Below, piece after piece: positions 3,226 through 56,302 of a DNA stretch of 64,000 nucleotides. Location: the NCBI GenBank assembly GCA_051362555.1, contig CM120645.1, forward strand, positions 9,858,001 to 9,922,000. Reading direction: 5' to 3'. The notes below the pieces were generated by a model. The model was not told the DNA's origin, ran no database searches, and was given only the letters and a program-made list of their open reading frames with translations. Positions within the stretch are counted from its first letter, which is position 1; each line of letters opens with the position of its first letter. Origin of the DNA: Lingula anatina (Eukaryota > Animalia > Brachiopoda). The position numbers were made by a program, and so were the translations under genes.

Positions 3226-5192
3226 TTAAAAACCGACTTGAGAGGTTGTTGAATCAGACGCCATCCAGATAATATTTGAAGGGGGCGTCCCGCAAAACGA
3301 GGTGGCAAGGACTGTCGTGTATGCCCCCATGTTGGGCACGTACAACCAGTCTCCGATGTCCAATTCGGGCAGTTGGATGTTCTGTGCAAGGCGATCGTCG
3401 GGGTTGAGTGTTGAACCCCAGACGTTGCTCTTATGGAACGGCACCAAGGGTTTGTCCTGCAAAATCAAACCTTAACAATAACATATCATTATTATTATTT
3501 CTTTTTTTCTTAATTTTTATTTTGAATTCATTTAGTTCAGGGTAGATTTGGAATTCATTACAGGTTAATTTTTTATCACATAGGTTCAAGTAGTGGAGGG
3601 TTTCTAAAAACTATATGAACTTAAATGGTAAATGGTAAGGATCTGGATAGAGAAAAAAGCTAAGGTGATCGCGAGGGAAAGGTTTTGGTCACAGATATTT
3701 TTATTCATTTGGTGAAAAATGCCGCAAAGTTGCCTGCTGAAAACATAAATAGTGCCAACATTTTCCCAATCTTTTTGTCTGATCTACGTAGGTACCTCAA
3801 GCAGGTGGAAGTCTGGAACTTTCTTATCATATGTCACTGTCTTACTGAATGCGCCATGAACCCCATCGTTAAGGTAGTAATCGTATACATCATTTGAGAC
3901 CTGAAAGGAAATAGACATGTATGGCCGCATCCAGAACAGATGATCCGCGATCTAACTGAGTTGGCCTGAAGGCGGGGTGACCATCAGGGGATAAGGCGGC
4001 TTGTTTATACGTGGGGTCAGCCGTATTTAGTCTTATTTAGTTAGTCAGCGGATAATTTGTTCTGAATGCGACCAATGGTAAACAAAAAAATCCAAACATG
4101 TATAATAAAGACGCACCTAATATAAGGTTACATTAATGTGTAGTGACATGTAAAAAGTGAAAATATTGTTTTAAAAAGAAGAAAACGCAAGATTAATTTA
4201 TTGTTCCCGGATAATGTTAGAGTACATTTAAAGGGTCTTACCCGTTTACCAATCACTCTTAGTACATAAGTGAAAGCCGACTGCACGTAGTACGTCCCGG
4301 GTTCCGCAATGACAACAACATTTTCTTCAGTTGGAAAATATTCATCCAGAGTTTTATTGATTCTTTTTGCCCCATCGGCGAATGTCGGGTTGCCTTCGGT
4401 TGAATAACCGGGGAATCCACCACCGATGTCCAGGAAGTTGAAGTTGAAGCCGATGGTTTTAGCTAAATCGAAGACACGACGACAAAAGATTATGGTGTCC
4501 AAGTGGGAAACGACATCGAAACCGGAGCGACCTATTTGAAAACTAAATAAAGGTTAAAGTTACAATTTGAGTATTCCTCATTTGTCTATGTTTGCTTATG
4601 CAATACGAGTCTGCAATGAGAGCGAAATGAGACATGACCGATATAAATCCATTTGAAAAACAGAAAGAATAAAAAATTGCTAAAAAAATTGCTATCCAAG
4701 TGCTTTCCCTGTTTATGCTTTATCAGTTTGTGTGCAGACGACAAACGGACTTTTTGTTTGGTGCCAAAACTAGACTTCCATTATCATCCAAAATGGAGCT
4801 TCGTTTTGACATCAAACACACGTACATTTTGTCATTGAGTTAGTGCCAAAACGAAGCAATCGTATGCCACGGTTCTATGTCTATCGGTTTACACGGACGT
4901 TAGCGTTGTACATTCCAAATGAACAGATAACGCGGAAGTATACCAGAGTGTTTTAAACCAATCAAATTACAGACTTTTCGTTGACTGAACAGTAATTCTG
5001 ATTGTATTTAGTTACTGCATTTATCATGAACATCTAAAGCCTTTATTTCATTAAGCACGCCTAGCCTCAGTAGGAATAAAACGCACATTTCCTAGCTTAC
5101 GCCATATAGCATTATTGGATAAATATTCAACTAAAATATTAACGCAGAAAATAACGTGAATCAAATAAAATCAATCATATTAACGTTTCTGG

Positions 5193-5228
<36 letters not shown>

Positions 5229-6189
5229 TCCAGAATATAGAATAGTGCCAATGGTACAGCGATTAAAGATAACCAAAGAACTGGTTCAGAAGCTGCAGGG
5301 TTACCTGACACCAACCACATTGAGATCCATTTTTTTGGCCTTCACTAGGAGGTCTTCGCATCGATCGGCCAGGCACCCGTACTTTTCATCAATTACGTCA
5401 CCAGAGCCCCTTTCAAATGGTAAAATCCTTAAAACAAGGCTAGTCGTAGGGTTTATACTCTTAATCTTGACTAATTCATGCTCATTGTCAAACACCATCA
5501 AATTAATTCCAAATTCAGATGCTGATTTGATATCGTCTGGATCTTTGACTGGGTGGCCATATATAATCCTATCAGTTTCTACCCCAAGCTTCAAAATCTG
5601 TTCAATGTCTGAAATGTTGCAGCAGTCAAATCCCGCCCCGAGTGCCGCAATGGTCTTCACGACTGGTTCAGTGTTGTTACATTTCACGGCGTAGAAGGGT
5701 TTGACACGTGGCATCAGTTCCACCCAGCGCTTGTGTTTGTTAACGATGTCATCCAAGTTGGCAATATAGTAAGGGCGCTGCAATCAAATTGTTGTTATTG
5801 AATTGGTTAAACCTCTGTTTATGAAAACGATACATCTTACTAGCACCTAAAGAACAGGCCTTGTAATCGGTAACAATAATAATAATAGTAATAGTGGAGC
5901 ATTAGAATGAATATAGGCCTACGCTTAATGTTTTTGCATAAACACCATCTTTATGATATTTAAAATATCAATACTTAATAATATCATTTGATTGTTATAC
6001 TTTATCATGAATGACAGACACTTTTGAGGGTATTTACTATTGCTTTTAGACCGACTATGGCTGTTTTCAAAGTACCATTCCTACCCTGTTAGCCCCTTCA
6101 CTTATTTTGTCTTTGATAAGTTGCTGTATTGCCTTGCTGTTACAGTTTCCATGAAGATTTTCCGTGCAATGGGTCTGAATTGTTGTCAT
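3226..6189 (-). CDS. Ornithine decarboxylase-like protein A (fold-type III PLP enzyme family), intact, 5 coding exons, ~404 aa
   Basis: Exons 6189-6085, 5777-5305, 4542-4242, 3900-3796, 3456-3226; all GT-AG and in frame. Motifs PFYAVKCN, GFDC, LVLRI, LDIGGGFPG, AEPGTYY, YYLNDGVHG, WGSTLNPDD, NMGAYT. Confidence 0.93.
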
Positions 6190-10251: not shown

Positions 10252-11020
10252 CAGGGGCGGATCCAGGATTATTTGAAGGAGGAGGTAAGGGGGGTCCGCG
10301 GATGTGTAGCCGTCCTCAACCGAACCCCTTATCTCCCAGAATTTTGGTGTTTTAGACGACGAACGGTGCCATTTGATACGCTTTAGAACCAGAATATGTT
10401 TTAATACGATGGCATTAGGATGCTCCTGATTGTGGCGGGCTGACCCCGCTCATGCACGCCATCTATCGGGGAAGACTGGGAATAGTGAATTTTTTCACCA
10501 AACGTGCGCTTTCAATGAAAAGTGGGTCTGTGTATTTAAGAATTTGGGCAACGAAAAGATTTGCTTATGTTAATTGTTTCTGCGTAAAAGATCGTGTTTA
10601 GCAATAACTATTCATATCATTTCGTCTTCCCTTTCCATTTATAATTTACAAAATTCTGGGCGACTCCCGTTTACGCCACACCGTAAAACATAATATGTTA
10701 AATATAGCATTTTTTTCAAAATTCGATATATGCGTGAAAATTATAAATAAAATAACTTTAATATGTTTTCTTTTCTATTGTAAAGTTACCATTAGCTGCA
10801 CTTTCAGGAAGGTGTGACCTTGAAATACTTGATAACGAGGCTTTCAGAGCGTTAAGGCACTATAAAAAAAATCAACTTGCATGATGTTTTTTTAATTGTG
10901 CGTGCTATTTGTAATATATGCAGCCTTTGTGAGAAACTGACAGTGGCAAATCTGTTCTGGGTGCGATGGAAATTACTGGTATATATAAGTAATATCAGAA
11001 CTCGATCAAAAATAAGATGG
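10252..11020 (+). mobile_element. Repeat beginning CAGGGGCGGATCCAGG (DNA-transposon/MITE-like end) with an ankyrin-like fragment; left edge of duplicated block 1
   Basis: Near-identical to 40348-41090; similar CAGGGGTGGATAC ends at ~27600 and ~61914. Confidence 0.5.
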
Positions 11021-13917
11021 AGCAGAAAGGAAGCTTCATAAATGTCAATGACTACACAGTTGACAATGACTTTAGAATCCCATCTAAGATTATGTATTAC
11101 TTAATTGATTAAGTTAAAAATAAATTTTCTGAGTGAAATCTGTTTTATACAGGCAGCAACCTTTAAAAGCCCTCTCCATTCAAGCCCATAACGGTTCAGT
11201 ACGTGTACATTGAACCAAAGTTTAATTTTTATGTAGAATTAAGATCCAATCCAGGTATGGTTTTGAAACGTGTATTTAAAATTGAAACAAGCTTACATAT
11301 ATGATCAGTCATGCACTTAATGAAATGTTTATAAATAATTGTTCCAAGTAATACATGCTGTTGATTTACTATAACTTTACTAAATATTACCTATATAAAA
11401 GACTGTCCTAAATATTAACGATGTATTCAATATTTCTTTCATTTTGCCAATTTTCATTGATTTTTGCCACCATTATCTGTTTATCTGCCCGCACGCGGAG
11501 TTGAGCTCAGTTTTTCGTTGATCTTGTTCTAGTAATTGATATCTCCTCTATGCAAATATATGCATACAAACACATAAACTGTTGCCCTAAATTCCACGTC
11601 CTGCTTTAATTTCATCAGACACCAGGCAGAATAATTCCGGTCGAGCAATTCCGTTAAAGGAGGTTGCAAGCACAGTAGTGTATGCCCCCATGTTAGGCAC
11701 GTACAACTAGTCTCCGATGTCCAGCTCGGGCAATAGGATGTTCTGTACCAGGAGATCAGTAGGGCTGAGTGTTGGACCCCACAATGTGCTTTGATAGACC
11801 GGCATTTTGTCTTTTTCCTACAATATTACACAAATGTTTTTTTTAAACCTAAACACTATATACCAGCAAAGACGAAATATACAAAACGTTGCAATCTGCA
11901 AGGACTTCTGCAAACTGAAAAGACAGCATGCAGAAATGGATATATAGAAGTATAAATTATGGAAACATGGTAGGAGACAAAAAGGAGAGTGGGTCTTATA
12001 CAGAGTTATTGGATTATTACACGTCACTATCACGTCAAAGCAACCGCGGATATTCTTGAATGAGGGAGGTCCATAAAAACACGCCTTGTAGTGAAGTTTT
12101 TAGTGGGCTTTTTTTTCCAAAAAATATTTACCCAATCAATTATATTTCTAGTAAGCATACTAAAACTATAAAGGTTGAGGCGTTACGTTGACGCTCATCT
12201 TGCGGTGTAGATCCTGTTTACTCGATACATACCTTGAAAACGTAAAACTCTGCATTAAGCCTTTCGACATATGATGGCATTGTGAAAAGGAATGCCCCAT
12301 GCATTCCATCATTGAGATAGTACACGTATGACTGTTCAGGGTCCTTAAAGTGGCAGGAAAAAAGAAACCAACATGAAAATAGGTTGAAATATATATATGA
12401 CAGAAAGACTGATACACTTATGTCAAAATTAAAAAAATAGCATGTACCTTGTCTGAGGGCGCCGAGCGTTGAACTCGTTTACCGATAACTCTAAGTGCCA
12501 AGGTGAAGGCCGACTGAACGTAGTATGTTCCAGGTTCAGCAATGACAACAACATTTTCTTCCTTGGGGGAAATATTCGTCCAGAGCCGTGTTTATGTCTT
12601 TGGCAACATCAGCAAATGTTGGTTTGCCTTTGACTGCATAACCGGGGAACCCTCCACCAATGTCCAGTAAGCTGAAGTTGTAGCCAATGGCTTTGGCTTC
12701 ATCAAAGATTTCACGGCACAAGCGTATGGTGTTTTGGTAGGCCATGGAATCGAAACAGAATCCACCAATATGAAAACTAAGCGAAACATTACTTTTGTGT
12801 AACACTCTGAAATGTCACACTATAACAAACAAAATATTTTTGAATATCACAGCATTGTAATTACTTTAGTAAGTTTTATATTAAATATTGCACATAACAA
12901 CTAATCGCGGCTGAATTTCAATTAAATTTAAAAATCAAAAAAGCAAAGGGAAACATTAAACAAAAACTGAAAAAAGGTCGAGGTCTGATAACAATTTACG
13001 AAAAACAACATCAATTTAGATATGTGTTTTAACCTACGTTAAACTGCAGAAGTACAAGAGGTGTAATTTAAAACTATTCGAGTTTAGTAAAGATTGTGGA
13101 ATACCTGACCCCTACGACCACCAGTGTCATTTCTTTTGCTTTCTCAAGAAGTTCTTTGCATTGGTCGACGGCGCAACCATACATTTCGCCGTATTCATAA
13201 ACACCCTTGTTTACTTGTGGGCAAATCCGCAACACAAGCCTGGCGTCAGGAAAGAGACTCTATATCTTGATTAATTCATACTCGTTGTCAAAGGTCATAA
13301 GGTCGACTCCTTGTTCTGAGGCACGTTTGATGTCTTGGGGATCTTTGCAGGGATGGGCATATATAATCCGATCTGTTCCCACCCCCTGGTTTAGAACCTG
13401 TTGGAATTCAGCGCTGCTAGCGCAGTCAAACCCCGCCCCAAGTGCCGCAATGGTCTTCACGACAGGCTCAGTGTTGTTACATTTCACGGCGTAGAAGGGT
13501 TTGACACGAGGCATCAGTTTCACCCAGTGCTTGTGCTTGTTAACGATGTCATCCAAGTTGACAATATAGAAGGGACGCTGCAATAAATTTTATAGAGCCT
13601 CAAAATGACCACAAGTATAACGTAATGTTCCACGTTTTTTGCTTAAACCTACATTGCTCGTTTACATTTGCTTCCATGTCCATTATCAAGTTGGTGCAAG
13701 TATTTTATCACTACGCCTATGGATCTGCTTAAATAGTTATGCAATTGCCATAAAAAAGAATGTCACGAATTGAACGTTGTTGACAAACGGGTGTTAATTA
13801 TTCTTACGTTGATATTTCCTATTTCGCCCTTTATGACACAGAATTACGTAAATAGAAAATCAGAAAGTTTGCAACGTATGTTTAGAATCCCTTAAAGAAT
13901 AATAGGTCTACTTCGTT

Positions 13918-14192
13918 TTTAGCACTAACCAGTGTTTAAGTCGAACCAGTGGATAAATTCTCCTAACACCCATTAACTGAACAACGGTTGAAATTGTGTT
14001 TTATAAACAGAGTTTAAACAGCCGATTAGTTTATCCATTTAAACACTGGACAGTTAACTAACCGGCTGTATAAACACTGTTTATGAAACACAATTTTAAC
14101 CAACTTTCAGTTAACGGGTGTTAGGAGATTTTATCCACTGGTTAGACTAATACACTGGTTAGTGCTAAACGTCCTTTATGAAATTGGGCCCC
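13918..14192. mobile_element. ~250-bp near-perfect palindrome (foldback MITE, Harbinger-like right end)
   Basis: TTTAGCACTAACCAGTGT...GGATAAATTCTCCTAACACCC pairs with GGGTGTTAGGAGATTTTATCC...ACACTGGTTAGTGCTAAA; ends CTTTATGAAATTGGGCCCC. Confidence 0.75.
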
Positions 14193-14278
14193 GGTGTTTT
14201 ACTTTACCCGTGTGCCATGTAATGTCGACCGTCAATCAAAGTTTTTTAATCATTTCAATCCTCATACTGGCAAGGGTA

Positions 14279-17050
14279 AACTAGAGGATCAGAGAGGCGA
14301 TACCGCCTCCGAATATTGTACCACCAGCTGGAGCAAGCGCATTCGTATAGACCCCCACATACACAAAATAAGGGACACAGCCACCAGTTTTGTGCTTGAC
14401 AAGCTGTAAAAATGCAATCAACAAGAATTTTTAAACTATTGCAAAAAATATATATGGTACAATCAAATTTAAGTTCTTCATAAGGTAGGTCAAGGGTCAA
14501 TTTCAAGGTCACAATAAATTGCCAGTATATGACTTCCTATTCAAGTTCAAGAGTAACTATGGACCTATCTCTGTCAAGTTTGAAGTTAAAAGAGAAAGAA
14601 ATTAGCAGAGTTCAGTTCATGATAAAAAGTAGGTCAAAGGTCAATTTCAAGGTCACACTTAGATTGCCAGTATAGGACTTCCTATTCAACTTCAATAGTA
14701 ACTATGGACCTATCTCAGCCAGTTTTGGAGATAAAAGGGAAGCAAAATTTGCAAAATTCAGTTCATGGTGAAAAGTAGGTCAAAGGTCAATTTCAAGGTC
14801 ACATTTAGATTGCCAGTATATGACTTTCTATTCAAGTTCAATAGTAACTATGGACCTATCTCTGCCAGTTTTGGAGATAAAAGGGAAGCAAAATTTGCAA
14901 AGTTCAGTTCATGGTGAAAAGTAGGTCAAAGGTCAATTTCAAGGTCACATATAGATTGCCAGTATATGACTTCCTATTCAAGTTCAATAGTAACTATGGA
15001 CCTATCTCAGCCAGTTTTGGAGATAAAAGGGAAGCAAAATTTGCAAAATTCAGTTCATGGTGAAAAGTAGGTCAAAGGTCAATTTCAAGGTCACATTTAG
15101 ATTGCCAGTATATGACTTCCTATTCAAGTTCAATAGTAACTATGGACCTATCTCTGCCAGTTTTGGAGATAAAAGGGAAGCAAAATTTGCAAAGTTCAGT
15201 TTATGGTGAAAAGTAGGTCAAAGGTCAATTTTGAGGTCACATTTAGATTGCCAGTATATGACTTCCTATTCAAGTTCAATAGTAACTACGGACCTATCTC
15301 AGCCAGTTTTGGAGATAAAAGGAAAGCAAAATTTGCAAAATTCAGTTCATGGTGTAAAGTAGGTCAAAGGTCAATTTTAAGGTCACATTTAGATTGCCAG
15401 TATATGACTTCCTTTTCAAGTTCAATAGTAACTATGGACCTATCTCTGCCAGTTTTGGAGATAAAAGGGAAGAAAAGTTTGCAAAGTTCAGTTCATGGTG
15501 AAAAGTAGGTCAAAGGTCAATTTCAAGGTCACATTTAGATTGCCAGTATAGGACTTCCTATTCAACTTCGATAGTAACTATGGACCTATCTCTGCCAGTT
15601 TTGGAGATAAAAGGGAACCAAAATTTGCAAAGTTCAGTTCATGGTGAAAAGTAGGTCAAAGGTCAATTTTAAGGTCACATTTAGATTGCCAGTATATGAC
15701 TTCCTATTCAACTTCAATAGTAACTATGGACCTATCTCAGCCAGTTTTGGAGATAAAAGGAAAGCAAAATTTGCAAAATTCAGTTCATGGTGTAAAGTAG
15801 GTCAAAGGTCAATTTTAAGGTCACATTTAGATTGCCAGTATATGACTTCCTATTCAACTTCAATAGTAACTATGGACCTATCTCTGCCAGTTTTGGAGAT
15901 AAAAGGGAAGAAAAATTTGCAAAGTTCAGTTCATGGTGAAAAGTAGGTCAAAGGTCAATTTCAAGGTCATAGTAAGATTGCCAGTATATGACTTCCTATT
16001 CAACTTCAATAGTAACTATGGACCTATCTCTGCCAGTTTTGGAGATATAAGGGACTAAATGTTATAATTTTGGAGTTACCATAATGTGCCTTAAATTTCG
16101 TACAGAAAAAATTAATTAAAATAAAGAAAAGGTCATTTTGGTCAAAATTCTTGAAATAGGAGGTGCTCTGAAGTTTCAGAAGTTCAAATTTGATGAAATA
16201 ATGTCATTTTTGAACACAAGTTGTCTGCTTTGCCAAGCCTTATGTTTTATTTTTCCAGAGTTCAAAATTTATTATCCATTACCGTACTGCACATTTTGCT
16301 TTTACCACCAATATGTGCTTTTTGATACAGCGTAACTCGAAAACCGTATGGAATACAAAAAAACCGAGACCACTTCCAGTGTTGGGCTTTACATGCTCTA
16401 CAAAATGCAAAAAAGAATGGGTTTCTAGCATTAACGGTTCCCGAATTAGAGACAGTTTTCAGTTTCGGTATCTTATGGCCGCTACTCCCGTGAAAATGCA
16501 CCGATTGACCCCAAATTCATGGAGATGAAAGATGACCTGAAGGGTAACACTTTCCAATAATATTATTGGTTAAGTCTGTGTGGTGTCTGAATAACAGGGC
16601 AAAAAAAATTTTTTTCGTAAAAAATTTCATTTTTTTGAAAATTTTGGCCCATTTGACCTTGAAGTAAAGGTCAAAGGTCAAATCCAAGGGTATATTTGAA
16701 ATCTACACATATGACTTTTGGAAAGCCGTCTATAGAAATTTTTCCCATAACCCCTTCCGTAGGGTAGATAATTAGCATTTAATTTTGCCATTTTTAGACA
16801 AGGGTGCATTGCAATGAGTGCCACACCCAGACCCCAATACCGACAAAGCCCAAATTTTACGTGGAACGAGTTGAGATTATAGGTGACCTAAATCCATGAG
16901 ATGGGTACGGGGGCCCTTACCGTCTAGGAGGAGAAGCGGTAACGGTAGCCATCCGGCGGAGCCAACGGAGCCGGCGGAGCCGGCGGAACGATCCGGACGG
17001 GACCGAAACCATGTGTACCGCCAGCGCTAACGCTGGTGGTACAATGAAAA
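14279..17050 (+). mobile_element. Non-autonomous Helentron/HINE-like element with internal satellite, in intron 1 of B
   Basis: 5' subterminal ATTGTACCACCAGC (14315-14328) is the reverse complement of GCTGGTGGTACAAT (17032-17045). 3' hairpin TGTACCGCCAGCG-CTAA-CGCTGGTGGTACA is preceded by short CGGAGCCGG repeats. Absent from intron 1 of E. Confidence 0.65.
14480..16050. repeat. Tandem satellite, 146-bp unit, ~10-11 copies
   Basis: AAAAGTAGGTCAAAGGTCAATTTCAAGGTCAC recurs at 14771, 14917 and onward; near-identical ORFs at 15203 and 15641 are 438 bp (3x146) apart. Confidence 0.95.
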
Positions 17051-18030
17051 GTTAAATCTATTAGAAAACGATTCACTTTTTCACCATCACTAAATGTATG
17101 AAAGCCACAACCAAAAAAATTGACAACAAAGACAGGACGCTTCAATAAATTCAATAGCGCCTCATAACGGTATTTTAGGTTACCATTAAAGATTTGGCAA
17201 CGACTCCAATGTGACCAAGACAACACAAACTCCTAAAGTAACTTTTGAAGGAATAAACCTTGAAACCATTGGGATACATTTATCACAGTGATGCTTGCGT
17301 ACTCAAACAAACCTTAGACCTCGACATTATGTCAATGCCATGCTAAATATCTCTTAATTCTCAAATGTCATAATTACCCTGTCTTTCTCTTCCATAATCT
17401 TTTCTTGGATAACTTTCAGTATTGCCTGGTTATTGTGACGCCCAGGATGTCGCTCAATATCTTGCGTAATTCGAGGGCGCGCTGTTGTCATTTTGTTGTG
17501 GTATCTTTTCTTCTAAATAAAATCAAAGACGCATTCTAAACATCTTGTAATATCTGATTCCACAACGAAGCAAAATAAAAAAATGACACGCTGAATACGA
17601 CAGGTGCAACAATTATATATAATTTTGAGTAACCGTGTAGTTAAACAGAAGACAAGACAGTTCCTCTCAACTACTGGTACATGTTTTTGTATCAGTTGCC
17701 CTCTTATTTTAAATGAATTACACATTTCAGCTAAATCTGTTAGGACAGACCATAGAGTCATTTATCATCTTCACGTCTATATATATTCATATCTGCCTGT
17801 CACACCACCTCTGGTCGCTGATCTCATGTCACGCTTGACGATTTTATGTTCGTGTTGCGCGTTAATTTGCCATGCGGTGGAGTTGAAGAGAAACTCGTCG
17901 CGCTGGTGGCGCGCGGGTTGGCAGTGCTTGATGCCCCTTTGCTCAAGCATCAGGTATATGCGGCTCGTTACTTATAACTCGTGGCAGGCTAAATGTGCTG
18001 TACAAACATCTTTACATAACGTAGACTTAA

Positions 18031-18250
18031 AGGGATAACAACTGCTCATTTTGGCCAAAAAATGGATTTTCCTTGGGTAAAGGACAATTTTCTCATCCTT
18101 ATTATTGGTTAATGAATCCATTCTGACATTCTAAGTTAGTCCCCGTTTTTTTCTAAAAAGTTTGGGTTGTTTGTAAAATTTCCTCAAGAGATCATTACAG
18201 AGTTAAGCCATCTGTGGAGGACAAGTGATGTGATGGCAATCACAAATTCA
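18031..18250 (+). mobile_element. Truncated Kolobok-like MITE (left end only), counterpart of 49949-50276
   Basis: TTAA|AGGGATAACAACT left end matches the complete copy in block 2; right TIR missing. Confidence 0.55.
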
Positions 18251-18593
18251 AAAAATTCTACTGGTCTGCGTGAAATTTTTCTGGCCTCTGAAGTACGCGC
18301 AAATAAATACAGAGTCTGAAAGATACTGTATTGTTATGCAGAGTTAAACTGCTAAATGACTCACCTGTTAGGCTACACTAACTTGGTAAAAACTATCTGC
18401 TACAACTTTCATCTAGAGAGATGAAGAACTTTTCTAATAAACGGCTGTCCTCAGAGGGGTTTATATTCACCTGCACTGTAATGAATATATATATCTGACG
18501 CTTTTTTAGATACGAGTCATGAAATTGACTGAATGTTGCCATACACTGCATTAATTCAAATTTATGTTTTACCTAGGTATGTAATGCGTCTAA

Positions 18594-18922
18594 CTTGACC
18601 TAGGTTACGAAAAACTCGTTTACCGATAACTCTAAGTGCCAAGGTGAAGGCCGACTGCACGTAGTATGTTCCAGGTTCAGCAATGACGTCATTTTCTTCC
18701 TCGGGGAAATATTCGTCCAGAGCCATGTTAATGATTTTGGCAGCATCAGCAAATGTTGGGTTGTCTGGGAATGCATAACCAGGACCCCCCCCCCCCCACA
18801 CACACACACCAATGTGTACTAAATTTGTAGGTAATGGATATGGCTTCATCAAAGATGTGGAGCCCAACGATATGGTGAAGGGGTAAGTGATGGAATCGAA
18901 ACAGAAGAGATCGATATGAAAA
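18594..18922 (-). pseudogene. ODC-like C relic (exon 3 only)
   Basis: SFHID...PGYAFPDNPTFADAAKIINMALDEYFPEEENDVIAEPGTYYVQSAFTLALRVIGKRV. Frameshifted, GGG loop replaced by a (C)n(CA)n tract, donor site mutated; no other exons found nearby. Confidence 0.85.
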
Positions 18923-21005
18923 CTAAAGAAAATTCAGGATCACTTTATGAAATGAATACAAACAAGACATTGATTAATTCCACATATTAGTTATTATTCT
19001 TTTATAAACAAGGTTGCAGAAAGGATTTCAAAGAGGGAAAATAATAATATACAAATAACCTATATTCATTAGAACGATTTAGAAAAGAATCACGTTTTAA
19101 AGGTACACATGAACCGACGTCGGTGGCCATGGAGCGTGGATTCCCAGTAACATATATAAACCACTTCTCCTAGTTTCTTGTACAACTCAAATAAATTCAA
19201 CATGCCAAGGAATAAACTGAATAAATCACTCAATCATCCAGAAAAGAGCTTTAGACTGCTCCTCTCTTTAAATTTGTGGTCAGAAATATAACCTACTTAT
19301 CTGACCTACTTTTCTGCCCCATGAACAGCATGTATGAACAGCATAGAAAGCTAGCAGAAAAACCTGTTTAAATATAATTATTCGGGTAATATTAAACAAT
19401 GTCCTTTGGTAATTCTCTTAGCTATACTATTTGAAACTATATGCTGGCATTTGGTTGGCTTTTGTGGCAAAAATGACTTCATATGGATACTTAACATGAT
19501 TTGTAAAGATGTGCGCCTTAAACTAATGCAGCCTTAAAACCTTGAACAATATGTAATGAATGAAAACTTCATGAAAGATCATAAAAAATGAATTGTTTGA
19601 GCCCAACATAATTATTTGAGCAAAATTAAATATGGATTGGAAATCCAATTACCAACCCTACAAGGAATATTTCAAAACTGTCATTGTCAATTTTCCAGTC
19701 TGACCTTAAAAATGGGCCAAAGACCATGTTCAGTGTCAGAATCAACTTCTTTACTAATGAGTTTCTGTGAAACTTCAGTTTTACTTATGTCTATCTTTTA
19801 TGGTTAAAGAGATATCATGCTTAATGCCTACAAGGCTTTCTATGTTACTTTGGTACTTTGTATGTGAAGTGTAGTAAACACGTAGCAGTGTTTAAGAACG
19901 TATATTCTTTACATGGGAAGATAAAAATACTACAGTCTGAAATAATAATAATATCTACTTCCATATGTAAGACGCGGTATTAGATTTTTTATTTTCCTGA
20001 AACAAACAAGCAAGGAAAATTTTCAAGTTTCCCCAAAACTTCATAACTTATGGAGAAAGTAACCAATCAGCCCGGAATTCAAAGTCAAGATGTATTCAAA
20101 TCCATAAAATCATTCTTGTAAGTTTTCGTACAATTAATATCATGGGTTTTTGTTAATGGTGTTAATAATAATTAAAGTGCAATAAATAGGGTTTCTGTCG
20201 TTTCTGTCAATTTTGATACAATATTACATTATCCTGAACAGCATAACTACCATTAATTTTAATTATATACAGGGTATTCAAAAATGTGTTAGCACTCGGT
20301 TTCAATTCCATGGGTCTTCAAAGTAACATTTTGAAAATGCCAATGAATAAATGATACATTCACAAAAACTGCACTTTAAGGAAATCATCGATCAATTAAG
20401 CTGCTATTCAACCTTGGCCTGTATTTTGGTGCTATGGATAAGTTTGGTAATAATACGTTACACCCTTATCTATTTATTGCATTAACAATGAAAAGTGCAC
20501 GACGACGACAAACGCCGTAGATGGCTGTTTGTGCAGTCATCTGAAATCACGTTGAAAATAACCAAGAATACCAAAACTAACATGGTGACAGACTTATATC
20601 AATAAAAGCATAGATTCTAAAACCTTAAAAACACGAAGGTAATGTGCGAATTTGTGACCTCTCATGAATTAACGACATCTAAAAAGCGAAATATGTTTAA
20701 CCAAATCTTTTCCCACTTTAATACTTAAACATAACTAAGAACATAATTGTGTTATTTACAATTATCATTTATCTGAAATTGAAAAATAAAATGGATTCTT
20801 GTGGCTATGTCAAAGCATGGGCAAGATTATCCTTTTTCATTCAGACGTACTCTTTGGGTTCAAGGGTGATTCGTAAAAACATGCCCTTGGACATTTGTCA
20901 ACTATTATTTACTATATATTTACCCAATGAAACCATACTTAAACCTAAAAAAGTGAAACCTCATATTAAAGCTTTTTATTAACTGTCTAAATACTAACTA
21001 CATAC

Positions 21006-22364
21006 CTTAATAACACGAAAACCTGGAATCGCTTTGTCAACCAGCACTGTGAAAAAGAATGACCCATGAATACCATCATTGAGGTAGTACAAGAACGACT
21101 GTTCGTGGTCCTGTTCTGGTTGCAGGAAAAATGAGAACTAAAATTATATTATATGTAATGAAGCAGCCACAGACACACAGACAAATTGATAGATGCATCA
21201 TTTACACACACATATACATGTAAATTGTATAAAAACAAAGAATAAACAGATTTAAATACACGTACCATGTCCGAGGCTGCCGAGCGTAGTATGTTCCAGG
21301 TTCAGCAATGACAACAACATTTTCTTCCTTGGGGAAATATTCGTCCAGAGCAGTGTTTATGTCTTTGGCAACATCAGCAAATGTTGGTTTGCCTTTGACT
21401 GCATGACCGGGGAACCCTCCACCGATGTCCAGTAAGCTGAAGTTGTAGCCAATGTCTTTGGCTTCATCGAAGATCTCATGGCACAAGCGTATGGTGTTTT
21501 GGTAGGCCATGGAATCAAAACAGGTGTCACCGATATGGAAACTTAAGAAAAAGTTGAGTATTCTGTTAAATATTGTGAGGTACCAAAGCACAGCAAATGA
21601 AATACCGCATCAAGTATAGAAATTTACACAGTTGATTTTAGTCTCTTTGTTTATCAAAGTGGCAGCGCGGATAAATTTTCAAACTGAAGCAATTCTAAAT
21701 AAGATAAAAGAGTAATAATTTATAAACAAAGTGTGCCTACCAACAATATTCACCAATATTTACAAAAAAGCGGATAAAGATGTTCAAATTAAATAAGAAT
21801 TAAACACGTTCGTCTTCATCAAATATGTACCGGGTTAATTTTTTTAGTGTAAAGGTAGAAGCTATAAATAATAGAATGCTATAACAACTACCTGACACCC
21901 ACGACCGTCAGTTTCATTTCTTTTGCCCTCACAATTAGTTCATTGCATTGGTCGAGGGCACAACCATACATCTTACCAAATGTATACCTAGTCTTGTCAA
22001 CTCGTGGGTGAATCCGTAACACAAGTCTTGCGTCTGGATAGAGATTCTTTATCTTGACTAACTCATACTCGTTGCCAAAGGTCATAAGGTCGACTCCTTG
22101 TTCTGAGGCACGTTTGATGTCTTGGGGATCTTTGCAGGGATGGGCATATATAATCCGATCTGTTCCCACCCCATGGGTTAGAACCTGCTGGAATTCAGCG
22201 CTATTGGAGCAGTCAAACCCTGCCCCAAGTGCCGCAATGGTCTTCACGACTGGCTCAGTGTTGTTACATTTCACGGCGTAGAAGGGTTTGACACGAGGCA
22301 TCAGTTCCACCCAGTGCTTGTGCTTGTTAACGATGTCATCCAAGTTGACAATATAGAAGGGACG
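21006..22364 (-). pseudogene. ODC-like D pseudogene (counterpart of G), exons 2-4 only
   Basis: Exons 22364-21892, 21541-21266, 21110-21006. 52-bp frameshifting deletion in exon 3 (junction 21285-21288); exon 5 deleted (junction ~19520); exon 1 absent; TFD>TFG. Confidence 0.92.
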
Positions 22365-23682
22365 CTGCAATATTTATAATATAATATGCATATTAATGTG
22401 TATGTTTGATTAATGCAGATGACACCAGCCCAAATTTAACCAAAAAGGAATGTGTTTCATATTCTTTGCTTTAATCCACATATACATTTACATGCTTTTC
22501 CATAACCAGGTCAATTAATCTGATGGAAAAGAGATACGATTGTCATTCAAATGAAAAAATCTAATGGTGCCTTCAAAAGCATGTTAGTAATTGAAGCCCG
22601 TCAATATGGGCAACTTATATAGGTGATTCTAGCATGAAACACTAAGTTTCGCCTTTGATCACACGCATGAAAAGGAAAATCAAAATATCTACAACGCATG
22701 TTTTAAAAGCCAGTACTTGTTTCAGTTCATATACCAGATGGTAAAATGGTTACCGTTTCAAAAGAAACCATTTATATTTTACCTACTGTTTGTATGAAAA
22801 CTGCCCTTTCGACCCATTATCAACGAGCATTATTACATGACTGCCTCGTGAACGTGACTTCCAGGTGTAGCTGCACTCAGTCAAAAAAGGGAAGTCTCCT
22901 TTACTGATTGAATTTATTGAATTCAAACGTAAAACTGAAAAAAAAATTAAATAAAACAAAATAAATAACAGAACAAAAAATGTAGCGAAAAATACTGAAA
23001 ACAAATTAAAATACAAAATTACCTAAAAATTGATAACAAATTTACATGAAGTACATACGAAAGTGTAAGAAAAAGGATAGACGGAAACGTTGCAAAGACC
23101 CAAAGCCGGAGAAGTTTACTTTACTTTAGCGTTGAAATAATATGACTAATCCCCGACCAAGTGTGCTAATATCGTTATAAAGGATAGATAGACACGTTGA
23201 AAGACCCAAAGCCAGAGAAATGTACGTTATCGTTGAAATAGTTACCTTTTCCTCCGACTGGGTGAGCTAAAATGGTGTCGTTAGAGTACCCGCACCGTTC
23301 TGTGTAAGAAAGTGACGTGAGCAAAAAGAAATAGGGAGGAGGCCTTATATACGCTGTGAAGTGAAAACTATTCAGTGCAGGGTGTGGTACAGGCATGTTA
23401 CGGTGCGGTTAGGTAAGTGCGATGGCCTGTAACGTTATAATTAGTAGAGCGAGAGAGAGAGAGAAAGAGAAAACAGAGAAAGAACGGAAAATGTACTTCG
23501 CATAAGTAAACACAGAAACTCAAATAAAAATAAATAAATAAAAATATCGCGGGCAGTTACACCAGGCTTATTATACATGTAACGGCAATAGCACGGTTAG
23601 TCACTTTGAAACGATTCACCTTTTCACCATCACTGCCAAAAGAAGACAAACCATAGGATTGTCCAAGAGATTCAGTGGCTGA

Positions 23683-23857
23683 GGACCCATTCAGAATAGA
23701 GGACTAACTAGTCCGAGGGTCAAATATGGCCGACCCACTTGAATACTTCCCCGAGGAATATCTATTCAGTGTATAATAGTGGATTGGACTACAAGCTTTG
23801 TAGTGGGTCGCCATATTTGACCCTCGGACTAGTAAGTCCCCTATTCTGAATGGGGCC
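23683..23857. mobile_element. Palindromic MITE (Harbinger-like, GG.CCC..TTCAGAATAG TIRs); truncated counterpart at 55874-56014
   Basis: GGACCCATTCAGAATAGAGGACTAACTAGTCCGAGGGTCAAATATGG pairs with CCATATTTGACCCTCGGACTAGTAAGTCCCCTATTCTGAATGGGGCC. Confidence 0.75.
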
Positions 23858-23860
23858 TAA

Positions 23861-34970: not shown

Positions 34971-35007
<37 letters not shown>

Positions 35008-35333
35008 TGAGAATGAGATCGATCGAGAGATAGTAAACATACCTGCCAGGTTTTTCATCATAGATCATATACCATGGGCAGTATGTCTCCGTGGTGTTGG
35101 CAAGATTGTCTCTAGGATTTATTGGCACATAAAATCCACCCTCCTTTTTGTATGCGCCCAAAATTCCACATTCACCTCTGTGCGTGTGTCGTCGCATGGG
35201 TGACGCTATGGCTACTGCGACAACTAGTACGGCAAAGAGGTACAATCCCTGTAAAAGCAAAATGTGAAAATGGTCCGACTTTAAGATTCAGTGGTCAAGG
35301 TGTTTGTAAATGTATTCATGATTGATATTCAAC

Positions 35334-35379
<46 letters not shown>

Positions 35380-51052: not shown

Positions 51053-51222
51053 CTTGACCTAGGTTACGTAAAACTCGTTTACCGATTACTGTAAGTGCCA
51101 AGGTTCAGCAATGACAACAACATTTTTTACCTTGGGGAAATATTCCTCCAGAGCCATGTGGCAAAAATATTCCTCCAGAGCCATGTTAATGATTTGGGCA
51201 GCATCAGCAAATGTTGGGTTGG
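51053..51222 (-). pseudogene. ODC-like F relic (part of exon 3), counterpart of C
   Basis: PTFADAAQIINMALEEYF...VIGKRVLRNLGQ remnant with an internal deletion and a short tandem duplication (AAATATTCCTCCAGAGCCATGT x2). Confidence 0.8.
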
Positions 51223-52166: not shown

Positions 52167-55100
52167 TTAAACGCCAATTTCAGAGGGGATTTCACCAGAT
52201 GCAAGGTAAAATAAATCCGGTCGGGCTGTCCCGTTGAAGGAGGTTACTGCTACGATAGTGTACGCCCCCATGTTAGGCACGTACAACCAGTCTCCGATGT
52301 CCAGTTCGGGCAGTTGGATGTCGTTTGCCAGGCAGTCAATGGGGTCGAGTGTTGGACCCCACACGGTGCATTGATAGACCGGCATTTGTTTTTGGTCCTG
52401 CAATATTACACAATTGATTATACGTATGTCGTGAATTAACTCGTTTATATCTATATATCCATCGCCACTGAACAATTTTGTAGGACTTTTGTAGCCTATA
52501 TATGTATAGCAAAGGGTGTAGATGAACAGGGCAGCAAAGCTGTCAAATGTACAAAAGTTTAGGAGAAATTCATGCAGCCTTAAAACCTTGAACATTTGTA
52601 ACGAATGAAAAATTCATAAAAAATGATAAAAAAAGAAGATGGTTTTTTAAAAAGAGCCACTATTATAGCCCAACATAATTATTTGAGCAAATATAAAGAA
52701 AAAAATTTAATATGAATTGGAAATCCAATTACCAATCCCTACAAGGAATTTTTCAAAACTGTCATTGTCAAATTTCCAGTCTGACCTTGAAAATGGGCCA
52801 AAGACCATGTTCAGTGTCAGAATCAACTTCTTTACTAATGAGTTTCTGTGCAACTTGAGCCTTGCTTATATGTCTATCTTTTATGATTTAAGAAATATCC
52901 AGCCCCAAACCCTGCTAATTGCCTACAAGGCTTTGTATGTTTAAACAATTAGCAGTGTTTAAGAATGTATATTCTTTACCGTCTGAAATAATAATATCTA
53001 CTTCCATAAGTAAGACGCGGTATTAGAATTTTTATTTTCCTGAAACAAACAAGCAATGAAAATTTCATAACTTATGGAGAAAATAACCCATCAGACCGGA
53101 TTTCAAAGTCAAGATGTATTCCTATCCTTGAAATCGTTCTTGTAAGTTTGCGTACAATAAATATCATGGATTTTTCTTTATGGTGTTAATAATAATTATA
53201 GTGCAATGAATAGGGTTTCTGTCAATTTTGATGCACTATTACATAATGCTGAACAGAATAATTACCATTAAATTTAATTATATGTACTACAGAATATTCA
53301 AAAATGCATTAACACTCGTTTTCAAGTTGATGGGCCTTCAAAGTAATACTTTGAAAATACCAATGAATAAATGAAACATTCACAAAAACTGCATAACTTT
53401 AAGGAAATCATCGATCAATAAAGCCGCTATTCAACCTTGGCCTGTACTTTGGTACTATGAATAAGTTTGATATATAATAATACGTTATGTACACGCTTAT
53501 CTATTTATTGCGTTAACAATGAAAAGTGCACGGCAACGACAAACGACGTTGATGGCTGTTTGTACAGGATCATCTGAAATCACGTTGAAAACAACCAAGA
53601 ATGCCAAAACTAACATGGCGACAGATTTATATCAGTAAAGCATAGATGCTAAAACCTTAAAAATACAGAGGTACATGTAATGAGCGACTTTATAACCTCT
53701 CATGAATGAACGAGATAAAAGATCTGAAAAGCGAAATGTGTATAACCAAATCTCTTTCCACTTCAATACTTGAACATAATAGAAGAACATAAAAACATAA
53801 TAGTTTTGATTATTTACAATTATTATTCCTCTGAAATTGAAAGAAATTGGATTCTTGTGGCTATGTCTAAGCATTGGCAAGACTATCCTTTTTTATTCAG
53901 ACGTACTCTTTGGGTGGATGATATGTTAAAACATGCCCTTTGACATTTGTTAACTAAATATTTACCCAATGAAACCATACTTAAACCTAAAAAAGTGAAA
54001 CCCCATACTAAGGCTGTTTATTAACTGTCTAAAAACTTACTACATACCTTAATAACACGAAAACCTGGAATCGCTTTGTCAACCAGCACTGTGAAAAAGA
54101 ATGACCCATGAATCCCGTCATTGAGGTAGTACAAGAACGACTGTTCGTGGTCCTGTTCGGGTTGCAGGAAAAATGAGAACTCAAATTATATTATATGAAA
54201 TGAAGCAGCCACAGACACACAGACAGATTGATAGATGCATCATGTACATACACATAAACATGTAAATTGTATAAAAACAAAGAATAAACAGATTTAAATA
54301 CACGTACCATGTCCGAGGCTGCCGAGCGTAAAACTCGTTTACCGATAACTCTAAGTGCCAAGGTGAAGGCCGACTGCACGTAGTATGTTCCAGGTTCAGC
54401 AATGACAACAACATTTTCTTCCTTGGGGAAATATTCGTCCAGAGCAGTGTTTATGTCTTTGGCAACATCAGCAAATGTTGGTTTTCCTTTGACTGCATAA
54501 CCGGGGAACCCTCCACCGATGTCCAGTAAACTGAAGTTGTAGCCAATGGCTTTGGCTTCATCAAAGATCTCATGGCACAATCGTATGGTGTTTTGGTAGG
54601 CCATGGAATCAAAACAGGTGTCACCGATATGGAAACTTAAGAAAAAGTTAAGTATTCTGTTAATATTGTGAGGTACCAAAGCACAGCAAATGAAATACCG
54701 CATCAAGTATAGAAATTTACACAGTTGATTTTAGTCTCTTTGTTTATCAAAGTGGCAGCGCGGATAAATTTTCAAGCTGTAGCAATTCTAAATAAGATAA
54801 AAGAGTAATAATTTATAAACAAAGTGTGCCTACCATCAAGATTCACCTATACAAAAAAGCGGATAAAGATGTTCAAATTAAATAAGAATTAAACACGTTC
54901 GTCTTCATCAAATATGTACCGGGTTAAATTTTTAGTGTAAAGGTAGAAGCTATAAATAATAGAATGCTATAACAACTACCTGACACCCACGACCGTCAGT
55001 TTCATTTCTTTTGCCCTCACAATTAGTTCATTGCACTGGTCGAGGGCACAACCATACATCTTGCCAAATGTATACCTAGTCTTGTCAACTCGCGGGTGAA

Positions 55101-56302
55101 TGCGTAACACAAGTCTTGCGTCTGGATAGAGATTCTTTATCTTGACTAACTCATACTCGTTGTCAAAGGTCATAAGGTCGACTCCTTGTTCTGAGGCACG
55201 TTTAATGTCTTGGGGATCTTTGCAGGGATGGGCATATATAATCCGATCTGTTCCCACCCCATGGGTTAGAACCTGCTGGAATTCAGCGCTATTGGAGCAG
55301 TCAAACCCCGCCCCAAGTGCCGCAATGGTCTTCACGACTGGCTCAGTGTTGTTACATTTCACGGCGTAGAAGGGTTTGACACGTGGCATCAGTTCCACCC
55401 AGTGCCTGTGCTTGTTAACGATGTCATTCAAATTGACAATATAGAAGGGACGCTGCAATATTTATAATATAATATGAATATTAATGTGTATGTTTGATTA
55501 CTGCAGATGACACCAGCCCAAATTTAACCAAAAAGGAATGTGTTTCATATTCTTTGCTTTAATCCACGTATACATTTACATAACCAAGTCAATTAATCTG
55601 ATGGAATAGAGATACGATTGTCATTCAAATAAAAAAATCTAATGGTGCCTTCAAAAGCATGTTAGTAATTGAAGCTCGTCAATATGGGCAACTTATATTG
55701 GTGATTCTAACATGAAACACTAGTTTCGCCTTTGATCACATGAAACACTAGTTTCGCCTTTATCATATGTATTACGGCAATAGCACGGTTAGTCACTTTG
55801 AAACGATTCACTTTTTTACCATCAATGCCAAAAGAAGACAAACCAAAGAGTTGTCCAAGAGATTCAGTGGCTGAGGCCCGATTCAGAATAGGGGACTAAC
55901 TAGTCCGAGGGTCAAATATGGCCGACCCACTTGAATACTTCCCTGAGGTAGTGGATTGGACGACAAGCTTTGTAATGGGTCGCCATATTTGACCCTCGGA
56001 CTAGTAAGTCCCCTAATTTAAAGCTATTTAAGTTTCTTTCACGATCGGACCAATGAATCTTGAAAGCCTTAAACCACAACCATTTTCAACCTAAAACATA
56101 TTGATTTCATATTTAAACATGCCTTACACCACAATATTATGTTAATGCCATGTTAAAAAATCTCATGATTCTCAATTGCCGTAATTACCCTGTCTGTCTT
56201 TTCTAATATTTTTTCGTTTATAACTTGCAGTATTGCCTGGTTATTGTGACGTCCAGGAATTGGCTCAATATTTTGCGTGGTTTCAGGGCGTACTGTCGTC
56301 AT
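52167..56302 (-). CDS. Ornithine decarboxylase-like protein G, intact, 5 coding exons, ~416 aa
   Basis: Exons 56302-56189, 55452-54980, 54635-54308, 54152-54048, 52397-52167; in frame. Motifs YAVKCN, GFDCSN, SFHIGDT, LDIGGGFPG, AEPGTYY, NDGIHGSF, WGPTLDPID, NMGAYT, SFNG. Confidence 0.93.

What the first reader, a model, noticed from the sequence alone, without database searches (positions are those of the whole stretch)
3226..56302. Expanded family of ODC-like PLP proteins that all lack the catalytic cysteine (C360L)
Seen: every copy with exon 5 reads WG(S/P)TL(N/S/D)P.D where ODC has WGPTCDG.D. All copies also have EPGT for EPGR, and those with exon 4 have DG(V/I/M)HG for DGVYG. The Schiff-base Lys (YAVKCN), GFDC, LRI, GGG loop, E of AEPG and MGAY are kept, and three copies have intact frames and splice sites. 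Established: in mammalian ODC numbering C360 directs protonation after decarboxylation and is the DFMO adduct site; C360 mutants shift toward decarboxylation-dependent transamination; R277 binds the PLP phosphate; D361 and D332 bind the substrate's distal amine; inactive ODC homologs act as antizyme inhibitors. Inference: these are not ordinary ODCs. They could be a lineage-specific PLP enzyme family with new chemistry or substrates (e.g. amino-aldehyde formation or specialised amine metabolites), or independently evolved antizyme inhibitors.
Basis: partly seen in the sequence, partly recalled or inferred. Interest (0 to 1): 0.85.

Follow-up and report, generated by a model that had tools for sequence, protein, structure and literature searches.

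The report
Brachiopod decarboxylase copies lacking catalytic cysteine
The lamp shell Lingula keeps a conserved cluster of ornithine-decarboxylase-like genes whose catalytic cysteine is replaced by leucine; they likely no longer make putrescine and may instead bind vitamin B6 and turn other amino acids into aldehydes, which is untested.

Summary
Observation confirmed. The window (Lingula anatina by 99% protein matches) holds three intact five-exon ODC-like genes (A, B, F), two broken copies and two remnants. All four copies with exon 5 have Leu360; Thr277 and His323 are as described. The Schiff-base and ring contacts that AZIN1 lost are kept, the antizyme-binding surface is acidic (AZIN1 is basic), and the substrate pocket differs between copies far more than between true ODCs. 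Best reading (0.40): PLP-binding enzymes for non-ornithine amino acids, most likely giving aldehyde plus PMP. Rivals: dead regulator or binder (0.28), antizyme inhibitor (0.17). The kind is known: Cys360-less ODC paralogs recur (planarian ODC5, 11 of 123 cluster representatives; this scan noted one in Trichoplax), and Lingula duplicates genes unusually fast. No activity was shown, and a canonical Lingula ODC was not found.

The parts
52167..56302 (-). Copy A, intact ODC-like gene, 416 aa; exons 56302-56189, 55452-54980, 54635-54308, 54152-54048, 52397-52167; K169M, S200D, R277T, Y323H, C360L (codon 52349-52347), D361 kept
   Evidence: 4 differences from RefSeq XP_013391340; residues
45372..49321 (-). 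Copy B, intact, 418 aa; exons 49321-49208, 47242-46770, 46447-46120, 45980-45870, 45602-45372; K169M, S200G, R277T, Y323H, C360L (45554-45552), D361N
   Evidence: 6 differences from XP_013391342; introns 3 and 4 crossed by reads of close paralogs
3226..6189 (-). Copy F, intact, 404 aa, most divergent; exons 6189-6085, 5777-5305, 4542-4242, 3900-3796, 3456-3226; H197Q, S200R, R277T, Y323H, C360L (3408-3406), D361N; K169 kept
   Evidence: 348 of 348 residues identical to XP_013391344; not covered by either read lay
11587..17491 (-). Copy E, duplicate of B, broken in this window (stop in exon 2, frameshift in exon 3, stop in exon 5); C360L, D361S. Intact in RefSeq (second half of P0122)
   Evidence: E-type variants in spliced reads of other samples
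21006..22364 (-). Copy C, duplicate of A, broken: exon 3 is 52 nt shorter (frameshift); no exon 1 or exon 5 found in the window
18604..18924 (-). Remnant D: decayed exon 3 only, still reads EPGT
51063..51217 (-). Remnant D': fragment of exon 3 with deletions
10259..27599 (.). One unit of a segmental duplication (C, D, E); the other unit spans about 40348-61868 (A, D', B); blocks 80-92% identical
   Evidence: self-BLAST

Best explanation
These are a Lingula clade of ornithine decarboxylase paralogs, kept by purifying selection, that likely still dimerise and bind PLP but likely act on amino acids other than ornithine, most likely decarboxylating them and, lacking the Cys360 that steers the proton to C-alpha, releasing an aldehyde plus PMP instead of an amine. 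Shown: the substitutions, the tree, selection, splicing of close paralogs. Inferred order of events: (1) on the stem of the Lingula clade the diamine pocket was rebuilt (Y323H, D361N, G362P, N327 and H333 lost) and the antizyme surface turned acidic while Cys360 stayed (P0004, P0005: likely amine-forming decarboxylases of a new substrate); (2) one branch then lost Cys360 and both phosphate side chains (S200, R277) and expanded in tandem, each copy with a different lid and specificity helix. Inferred mechanism: Lys69 Schiff base, substrate aldimine, CO2 loss, protonation at C4', hydrolysis to aldehyde and PMP; the loosened phosphate cup would let PMP exchange for PLP or be recycled by a keto acid. 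A variant of the same reading is that the invariant His323 replaces Cys360 as proton donor and the product is an amine. Within the 0.40, about half is on the aldehyde route.
For: Cofactor contacts K69, D88, R154, D233, G235-237, E274, G276, Y389 are kept in A, B and F; among six Leu-clade proteins the only losses are H197Q (F) and D88Y (P0125), whereas primate AZIN1 lost D88, R154, Y389, turtle AZIN2 R154 and E274, and an unnamed paralog P0426 six of six. In human ODC the changes that abolish activity (Y389D, D134A, V322D) are at sites kept here; those at sites changed here leave 9-18% of kcat (R277S 21, K169A 27, Y331S 40 against 225 per min; PMC4139326 Table 1). dN/dS A-B 0.37 (0.26-0.51), A-F 0.29 (0.21-0.38), B-F 0.29 (0.21-0.40). 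Pocket identity between copies is 0.53 (A-B) and 0.27 (A-F, B-F) at 0.85 and 0.67-0.69 identity elsewhere; 0 of 371, 0 of 1860 and 0 of 1479 canonical ODC pairs are as low. Lingula clade 100/100, Leu clade 99/94 with the diagnostic motif positions masked. Fold intact (pLDDT 90.6, TM 0.91 to human ODC). Homodimer model 0.79 against best control 0.00, runs agree in at least 81% of contacts, pLDDT 86; mark reached by 21 of 30 solved pairs and 0 of 23 single chains (eukaryotes 17 of 29 and 0 of 30), but ODC dimers are solved so the pass may be from memory. 8 of 11 Cys360-less representatives keep all six core cofactor residues. Precedents: loss of the proton donor turns fold-I decarboxylases into aldehyde synthases (PMC7497351); an ODC paralog became a leucine decarboxylase (PMC6313458). 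That C360A/S mutants of T. brucei ODC give aldehyde plus PMP is recalled (Jackson 2000), not read here.
Against: No activity, cofactor binding or substrate was tested. No characterised fold-III decarboxylase that works without this cysteine was found in my searches; those described as lacking it are antizyme inhibitors (PMC6738921) or untested (planarian ODC5). Four or five key substitutions together would normally mean near-zero activity, and abortive transamination inactivates the cofactor after one turnover (PMC7497351). Loss of S200 and R277 together may simply abolish PLP binding; S200D in A puts an acid near the phosphate, and F also lost H197. Across representatives, C360 loss co-occurs with loss of core residues more than chance (3 of 11 against 6 of 112, p 0.034), as general decay would give. 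Lid and specificity helix are loops, so fast change may be relaxation; dN/dS there is not reliably above 1, and I chose the pocket positions from recall after seeing the alignment. Expression is low, and A, B and F themselves were not shown to be transcribed. Two of five gene copies in the window are broken.
Confidence: 0.4

Rival explanations
1. Catalytically dead but useful proteins that are not antizyme inhibitors: small-molecule or PLP binders, or partner subunits that form heterodimers with the Cys-bearing paralogs and change their output (the Leu subunit spoils one site and lends its barrel to the other).
For: 4-5 of 18 key residues changed, including the proton donor and both phosphate ligands. 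Selection at dN/dS 0.3 fits a folded binder as well as an enzyme. Planarian ODC5 (C360V, R277A) has an essential role that putrescine did not rescue and that the authors argue is not AZI-like (PMC5574924 Table 2 and Discussion). Cys-type transcripts are about ten times more abundant in two runs.
Against: Dead paralogs usually also lose the ring contacts (planarian ODC6, P0426, AZIN1), which this clade kept over long branches. Several tandem copies with different pockets are more than a simple inhibitor subunit needs.
Confidence: 0.28
2. Independently evolved antizyme inhibitors: monomeric, inactive ODC look-alikes that sequester antizyme and so raise polyamine levels.
For: T277 with V331 and E332 in B resembles AZIN1's S277, S331, E332 (PMC6313458). 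K115, A123, E138, L139, K141 of the antizyme-binding element are kept. Repeated origin of such proteins was proposed by Ivanov 2010 (seen only as cited in PMC5574924). RefSeq labels some copies 'antizyme inhibitor 2-like' (automatic names).
Against: Net charge of residues 115-144 is -2, -3, -3 in A, B, F against +1.06 (SD 1.15) in 263 canonical ODCs (6 of 263 at -2 or lower) and +3 in mammalian AZIN1. AZIN1's high affinity rests on K125 and K140 (PMC3084279 abstract); here E125 and V140, with D119 and mostly D129, and acids in this stretch lower binding (PMC3207831 section 10). K92 (253 of 263 canonical) is lost. Y389, whose loss marks AZIN1, is kept. Caveats: P0002 and P0125 have K125 and charge 0, D129 is common in canonical ODCs, the rules come from human antizyme, and Lingula antizyme was not obtained.
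Confidence: 0.17
3. Redundant duplicates on the way out: a birth-and-death array whose members are dispensable and whose apparent selection is left over from earlier function.
For: C, D, D' and E are broken in this window; Lingula has the highest gene-family turnover among the bilaterians compared (PMC4595640); low read depth.
Against: dN/dS is well under 1 even between young duplicates (A-C 0.10, B-E 0.31) and at dS near 1 between F and A/B; A, B, F are intact in two assemblies; E is intact in RefSeq and E-type reads are spliced.
Confidence: 0.1
4. They are still ornithine or lysine decarboxylases, with compensating changes.
For: No canonical ODC named from Lingula appeared among the listed hits; A keeps D332 and D361.
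Against: Cys360 is kept in 292 of 294 other homologues; only the best 120 hits per search were listed, so a canonical gene may well exist; P0004 (only D361N among the 18) is a better candidate for residual ODC activity.
Confidence: 0.05

Closest known systems
Eukaryotic ornithine decarboxylase (fold-type III; PF02784 + PF00278; human 1d7k, 7u6p; mouse 7odc)
   Same: Both Pfam domains, 41-43% identity, TM 0.91, rmsd 1.6 A, K69, D88, R154, E274, Y389, F397, predicted two-fold dimer.
   Different: C360L, R277T, S200D/G/R, Y323H, G362P, mostly D361N and K169M, K92 lost, rebuilt lid and specificity helix, acidic antizyme element, short C-terminus.
Planarian ODC5 (C360V, R277A) and ODC3 (S200N, R277T), PMC5574924
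   Same: Invertebrate ODC paralogs that lose C360 and/or R277 but keep K69, D88, R154, H197, E274; biochemistry untested.
   Different: Separate lineage; single genes rather than a tandem clade with diverging pockets; D361 and S200 kept in ODC5.
Vertebrate antizyme inhibitors AZIN1 and AZIN2
   Same: ODC fold with key residues lost; small residue at 277 (Ser in AZIN1).
   Different: AZIN1 keeps C360 but loses D88, R154, Y389 and has a basic antizyme element (+3); the Lingula proteins show the opposite pattern and do not group with vertebrate proteins.
Mouse Gm853 leucine decarboxylase and Xenopus AZIN2/ODC2 lysine decarboxylase
   Same: ODC paralogs that became enzymes for another amino acid and are not antizyme inhibitors (PMC6313458, PMC6738921).
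   Different: They keep all catalytic residues including the cysteine (PMC7671201 section 3.3); closer in kind to Lingula P0004/P0005 than to the Leu clade.
Plant aromatic aldehyde synthases and insect DHPAA synthase (fold-type I)
   Same: Analogy only: loss of the C-alpha proton donor switches a decarboxylase to aldehyde formation (PMC7497351).
   Different: [quoted passage not shown]
Other uncharacterised Cys360-less ODC-like proteins (Trichoplax TRIADDRAFT_19621 C360V; Sinanodonta C360G; Lytechinus C360T; Neoconidiobolus C360L; unnamed P0340 C360L + R277T)
   Same: Same general pattern; P0340 shares WGPTLDP and EPGT.
   Different: None falls inside the Lingula clade; whether P0340 shares an origin with the Leu clade is open (AU p 0.38).

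Membership tests
Eukaryotic ODC (active enzyme) | Fold-III barrel plus sheet domain | tested here: met
   Pfam; model and Foldseek
Eukaryotic ODC (active enzyme) | All 18 key catalytic residues, including C360, D361, R277, S200 | tested here: not met
   A 14 of 18, B 13 of 18, F 13 of 18 (list from PMC5574924 Table 2)
Eukaryotic ODC (active enzyme) | Homodimer with shared active sites | tested here: inconclusive
   Model passes (0.79 against 0.00) but may be from memory of solved ODC dimers
Eukaryotic ODC (active enzyme) | Ornithine to putrescine activity | not testable with these tools
   Needs an assay
Antizyme inhibitor (AZIN1/AZIN2 type) | Loss of PLP ring and phosphate contacts (D88, R154, R277, Y389) and of PLP binding | tested here: inconclusive
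   R277 and S200 lost; D88, R154, Y389 kept in A, B, F; binding not measurable here
Antizyme inhibitor (AZIN1/AZIN2 type) | Basic, high-affinity antizyme-binding element (K125, K140 in human AZI) | tested here: not met
   E125, V140, net charge -2 to -3 in A, B, F against +3 in AZIN1; rule from human proteins
Antizyme inhibitor (AZIN1/AZIN2 type) | Binds antizyme and rescues ODC; monomer in solution | not testable with these tools
Antizyme inhibitor (AZIN1/AZIN2 type) | Orthology to vertebrate AZIN1/AZIN2 | tested here: not met
   Vertebrate ODC, AZIN1, AZIN2 form their own clade 100/99
Antizyme inhibitor (AZIN1/AZIN2 type) | Leader uORF ending in a PPW-type motif (feature recalled) | tested here: inconclusive
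   No PPW on the minus strand of the window, but leader exons were not mapped
Recurrent non-canonical ODC paralogs (Ivanov 2010 sense) | ODC homologue with substitutions among the 18 key residues, arisen within one lineage | tested here: met
Recurrent non-canonical ODC paralogs (Ivanov 2010 sense) | A canonical ODC present in the same genome | tested here: inconclusive
   None named Lingula among best 120 of 234, 4585 and 7935 hits; no genome held
PLP aldehyde synthase / decarboxylating transaminase (works-like) | C-alpha proton donor removed with cofactor lysine and ring contacts kept | tested here: met
   role of C360 recalled
PLP aldehyde synthase / decarboxylating transaminase (works-like) | Multiple-turnover aldehyde formation | not testable with these tools
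   Needs an assay

The most novel reading that the evidence does not exclude
The Leu360 clade is the first natural family of fold-type III decarboxylating transaminases or aldehyde synthases: the ODC side reaction made the main reaction, each copy turning a different (probably hydrophobic or aromatic) amino acid into an aldehyde, for example to cross-link the chitin-protein shell, setae or pedicle cuticle as insect DHPAA synthase does, with the Cys-bearing sister genes as the amine-forming ancestors. The recurrent C360-less, R277T paralogs of other invertebrates would then be enzymes too, not antizyme inhibitors.
Probability: 0.2. Interest if true: 0.8.

Novelty: new variant of a known kind. 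Interest (0 to 1): 0.47.

Why it matters
ODC paralogs with lost key residues recur across animals and are usually labelled antizyme inhibitors without a test. Lingula offers a graded natural series in one genome (Cys+Arg: P0004; Cys without Arg: P0005; Leu+Thr: A, B, F), so one round of expression and assays can decide whether such proteins are dead regulators or enzymes with new chemistry. An aldehyde-forming fold-III enzyme would be new enzymology. The expansion as such is ordinary for Lingula. The family was not found described in print: searches for Lingula or brachiopod with ornithine decarboxylase listed nothing relevant, and the 2015 genome paper and its one held supplement never mention it; most subscription papers, Ivanov 2010 among them, are not in the library.

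Tried and rejected
Whole genome not held, so no genome-wide copy count and no direct search for a canonical ODC or antizyme. Run search listed no RNA holder; nine raw-read runs with the same species label were offered, eight were laid (X6 not). First lay at 93% likeness was mostly repeats and conserved patches from paralogs. First structure model from a 7-sequence alignment was poor (pLDDT 58) and was not used. My first exon boundaries were off by one base and one script failed; corrected. A grouping of the Lingula clade with divergent mollusc proteins and P0340 appeared at SH-aLRT 95 under LG+G4 but fell to 81 or dissolved under the mixture model: not accepted. Careful tree of 69 rows did not finish (one search is the quick tree). 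Horizontal transfer considered and set aside: the genes have introns and the nearest named relatives are animal ODCs, though the clade's sister is unresolved. ESM Atlas returned only ODC clusters. Literature searches for K92/K141 contacts, C360 transamination and mollusc ODC expansions gave nothing specific. Ivanov 2010 not held. PMC4066113 had no passage on C360. Positive selection on the pocket could not be shown (too few codons). No look-alike earlier finding by sequence.


Full report
WHAT IS THERE. A six-frame scan, self-BLAST, exon models and tblastn give seven ODC-like pieces on the minus strand: intact A, B and F; E with two stops and a frameshift; C with a 52-nt deletion and no first or last exon; and exon-3 remnants D and D'. 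A-D'-B and C-D-E are two units of a segmental duplication; F lies beyond. All 12 introns of A, B and F are GT..AG with the same phases. A differs from RefSeq Lingula anatina XP_013391340 at 4 of 416 residues, B from XP_013391342 at 6 of 418, and F is identical to XP_013391344 over 348 residues, so the window is the brachiopod L. anatina or a very close relative.

RESIDUES. Numbering was taken from a turtle ODC that matches human numbering at 23 of 23 checked sites. Against the 18 key residues listed in PMC5574924 Table 2, A has K169M, S200D, R277T, C360L; B has K169M, S200G, R277T, C360L, D361N; F has H197Q, S200R, R277T, C360L, D361N. All have Y323H, G362P, loss of K92 and a changed F400. In 294 non-Lingula homologues of 340-560 aa, C360 is kept in 292 and K69, D88, K169, H197, Y389 in all 294. 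Other L. anatina proteins fill in a series: P0002 and P0125 (Leu360; A or V at 277), P0005 (Cys360, R277C, D361N), P0004 (Cys360, R277, only D361N), P0003 (aberrant C-terminus).

ORIGIN. The 12 Lingula rows form one long-stemmed clade (SH-aLRT 100) with the nine Leu rows together (97) (69 rows, quick). With the diagnostic motif positions masked, a careful tree of 25 rows gives 100/100 and 99/94, with P0004 + P0005 as sister at 94/90. The simplest reading is that the pocket was rebuilt first and Cys360 lost once afterwards. The clade's sister is unresolved. A profile search of 1.84 billion representatives (13,519 hits, best 150 listed) found one representative for the whole family at 830 bits and the next single-domain protein at 442; three word-indexed searches found only L. 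anatina above about 54% identity. So the family is Lingula-restricted in these collections, where brachiopods may be thinly sampled. No canonical ODC named from Lingula was among the 120 hits listed per search; this is not evidence of absence.

SELECTION AND EXPRESSION. Nei-Gojobori dN/dS is 0.37 (A-B), 0.29 (A-F), 0.29 (B-F), with bootstrap intervals all under 0.52; young pairs give 0.10 (A-C) and 0.31 (B-E). Reads from four RNA runs laid on exons 3-5 of B at 84% likeness cover exons only, come from the minus strand in the two stranded runs, and cross intron 4 (5 reads in two runs) and intron 3 (6 reads in two runs). Their variants match the E type and the P0125 type (9 of 11 reads over the motif in X2), and no change in the Leu codon is among the 40 rows shown (55 rows not shown). 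Some 81-99 reads in X2 and X3 run off into sequence that translates like P0004/P0005, so the Cys-type sisters are about ten times more abundant there; the Cys codon itself lies outside the 30 letters shown.

HOW COMMON IS THE PATTERN. Among 123 full-length domains from the 150 representatives, C360 is changed in 11 (Leu 4, Gly 2, Thr, Arg, Asn, Ala, Val), R277 in 16 (Thr 8), K69 in 1. Loss of C360 goes with change at 277 (5 of 11, p 0.006), 200 (p 0.004), 361 (p 0.0002) and 332 (p 5e-6) (representatives are not fully independent). Named cases include Trichoplax, Sinanodonta, Lytechinus, a firefly and a fungus. An unnamed protein, P0340, shares WGPTLDP and EPGT; holding it with the Leu clade is not rejected (AU p 0.38), so convergence is likely but not shown. 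PMC5574924 (passages, sections 5 and 13 part 1 read) reports planarian ODC5 with C360V and R277A, essential in wound response and not rescued by putrescine, and summarises Ivanov 2010 (not held) on the repeated rise of such paralogs. PMC4595640 (passages; one supplement searched) says Lingula has the highest gene-family turnover among the bilaterians compared. The kind is therefore known and the expansion unremarkable; the particular residue set and the graded series are what is new.

ENZYME, INHIBITOR OR DEAD BINDER. Three sequence tests lean away from antizyme inhibitor. First, AZIN1 lost D88, R154 and Y389 and kept C360; the Lingula proteins did the reverse. Second, the antizyme-binding stretch 115-144 has net charge -2 to -3 in A, B, F against +1.06 in 263 canonical ODCs and +3 in AZIN1; basic residues at 125 and 140 raise affinity (PMC3084279, abstract) and acids lower it (PMC3207831, abstract and section 10). 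The acid surface is already in P0004/P0005, while P0002/P0125 are neutral. Third, 16 pocket and lid positions differ between copies far more than between canonical ODCs at equal overall identity (positions recalled, chosen after seeing the alignment; P0002-P0125, B-E and P0004-P0005 pairs are not outliers). In human ODC, R277S, K169A and Y331S keep 9-18% of kcat while Y389D is dead (PMC4139326, passages and Table 1). The model of P0123 is an intact ODC fold, and the dimer model passes its controls and puts the 355-360 loop, with the Leu, against Lys70 and His113 of the other chain, though this may be memory of solved ODCs and PLP was not scored. Against an enzyme: both phosphate side chains and the proton donor are gone, abortive transamination consumes the cofactor, PMC7497351 (passages) states that no oxygen-dependent reaction is known in fold-III decarboxylases, and core-residue loss is enriched among C360-less proteins. 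I put 0.40 on an active enzyme for a non-ornithine amino acid (about half of that on aldehyde plus PMP, from the recalled behaviour of C360A/S mutants), 0.28 on a dead non-AZIN binder or partner subunit, 0.17 on antizyme inhibitor, 0.10 on dispensable duplicates, 0.05 on retained ODC activity.

OTHER PAPERS SEEN. PMC6313458 (passages: AZIN1 residues, Gm853), PMC7671201 (passages: leucine decarboxylase keeps the cysteine), PMC6738921 (passages), PMC6411801 and PMC4066113 (passages, nothing used). Supplements of these were not read.

VERDICT. A real, selected, lineage-specific clade of non-canonical ODC paralogs: a new variant of a known kind. Interest 0.47; 0.8 if it proves to be an aldehyde-forming fold-III enzyme (probability about 0.2).

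Noticed in passing
window 21006 (end of C exon 4) and 17512 (acceptor of E exon 1); RefSeq P0122, P0121, P0001: RefSeq models four isoforms of a 728-765 aa protein in which copy C, lacking exon 5, splices in frame through E's leader into a whole copy E: a two-barrel read-through fusion. In this window both halves are broken. Real transcript or annotation artefact is unknown.
   Followed up: partly
window 11587-17491: Copy E has two nonsense substitutions and a one-base frameshift here but is intact in RefSeq and E-type reads are spliced in other samples: probably a null allele or haplotype, so copy number and integrity vary within the species.
   Followed up: partly
window 35039-35251 (-) and 62669-62880 (-): Duplicated exon with a signal-peptide-like start and a Cys-Pro-Trp-Tyr motif near its end, reminiscent (recalled) of IL-17 or other cystine-knot secreted proteins; no Pfam or Atlas hit, next exon not found.
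   Followed up: partly
window 1-744 (-): Open frame of 248 codons, Lys/Ser/Arg/Pro-rich, running off the window start; no Pfam hit. Probably a large exon of a neighbouring gene.
   Followed up: partly
window 14464-16063 and 29980-33913: Tandem repeat arrays with units of about 146 and about 160 bases; the first lies in intron 1 of copy E.
   Followed up: no
exon 3 of A, B, C, E (54635-54308, 46447-46120): Exon 3 is about 94% identical between A and B types while exons 2 and 5 are 83-87%: possible gene conversion of the barrel's second half.
   Followed up: no
proteins P0426, P0340, P0343, P0388: Other non-canonical ODC paralogs: P0426 (unnamed, sister to leech ODC) has lost all six core cofactor residues and has a basic antizyme element, a good invertebrate antizyme-inhibitor candidate; P0340, P0343, P0388 lack C360 with the core intact.
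   Followed up: partly
R277 column across 123 representatives: When R277 is replaced it is Thr in 8 of 16 cases and Lys in only 1, and the change goes with loss of the acid at 332 (12 of 16): a recurrent remodelling of the phosphate and specificity-helix site across animals.
   Followed up: partly
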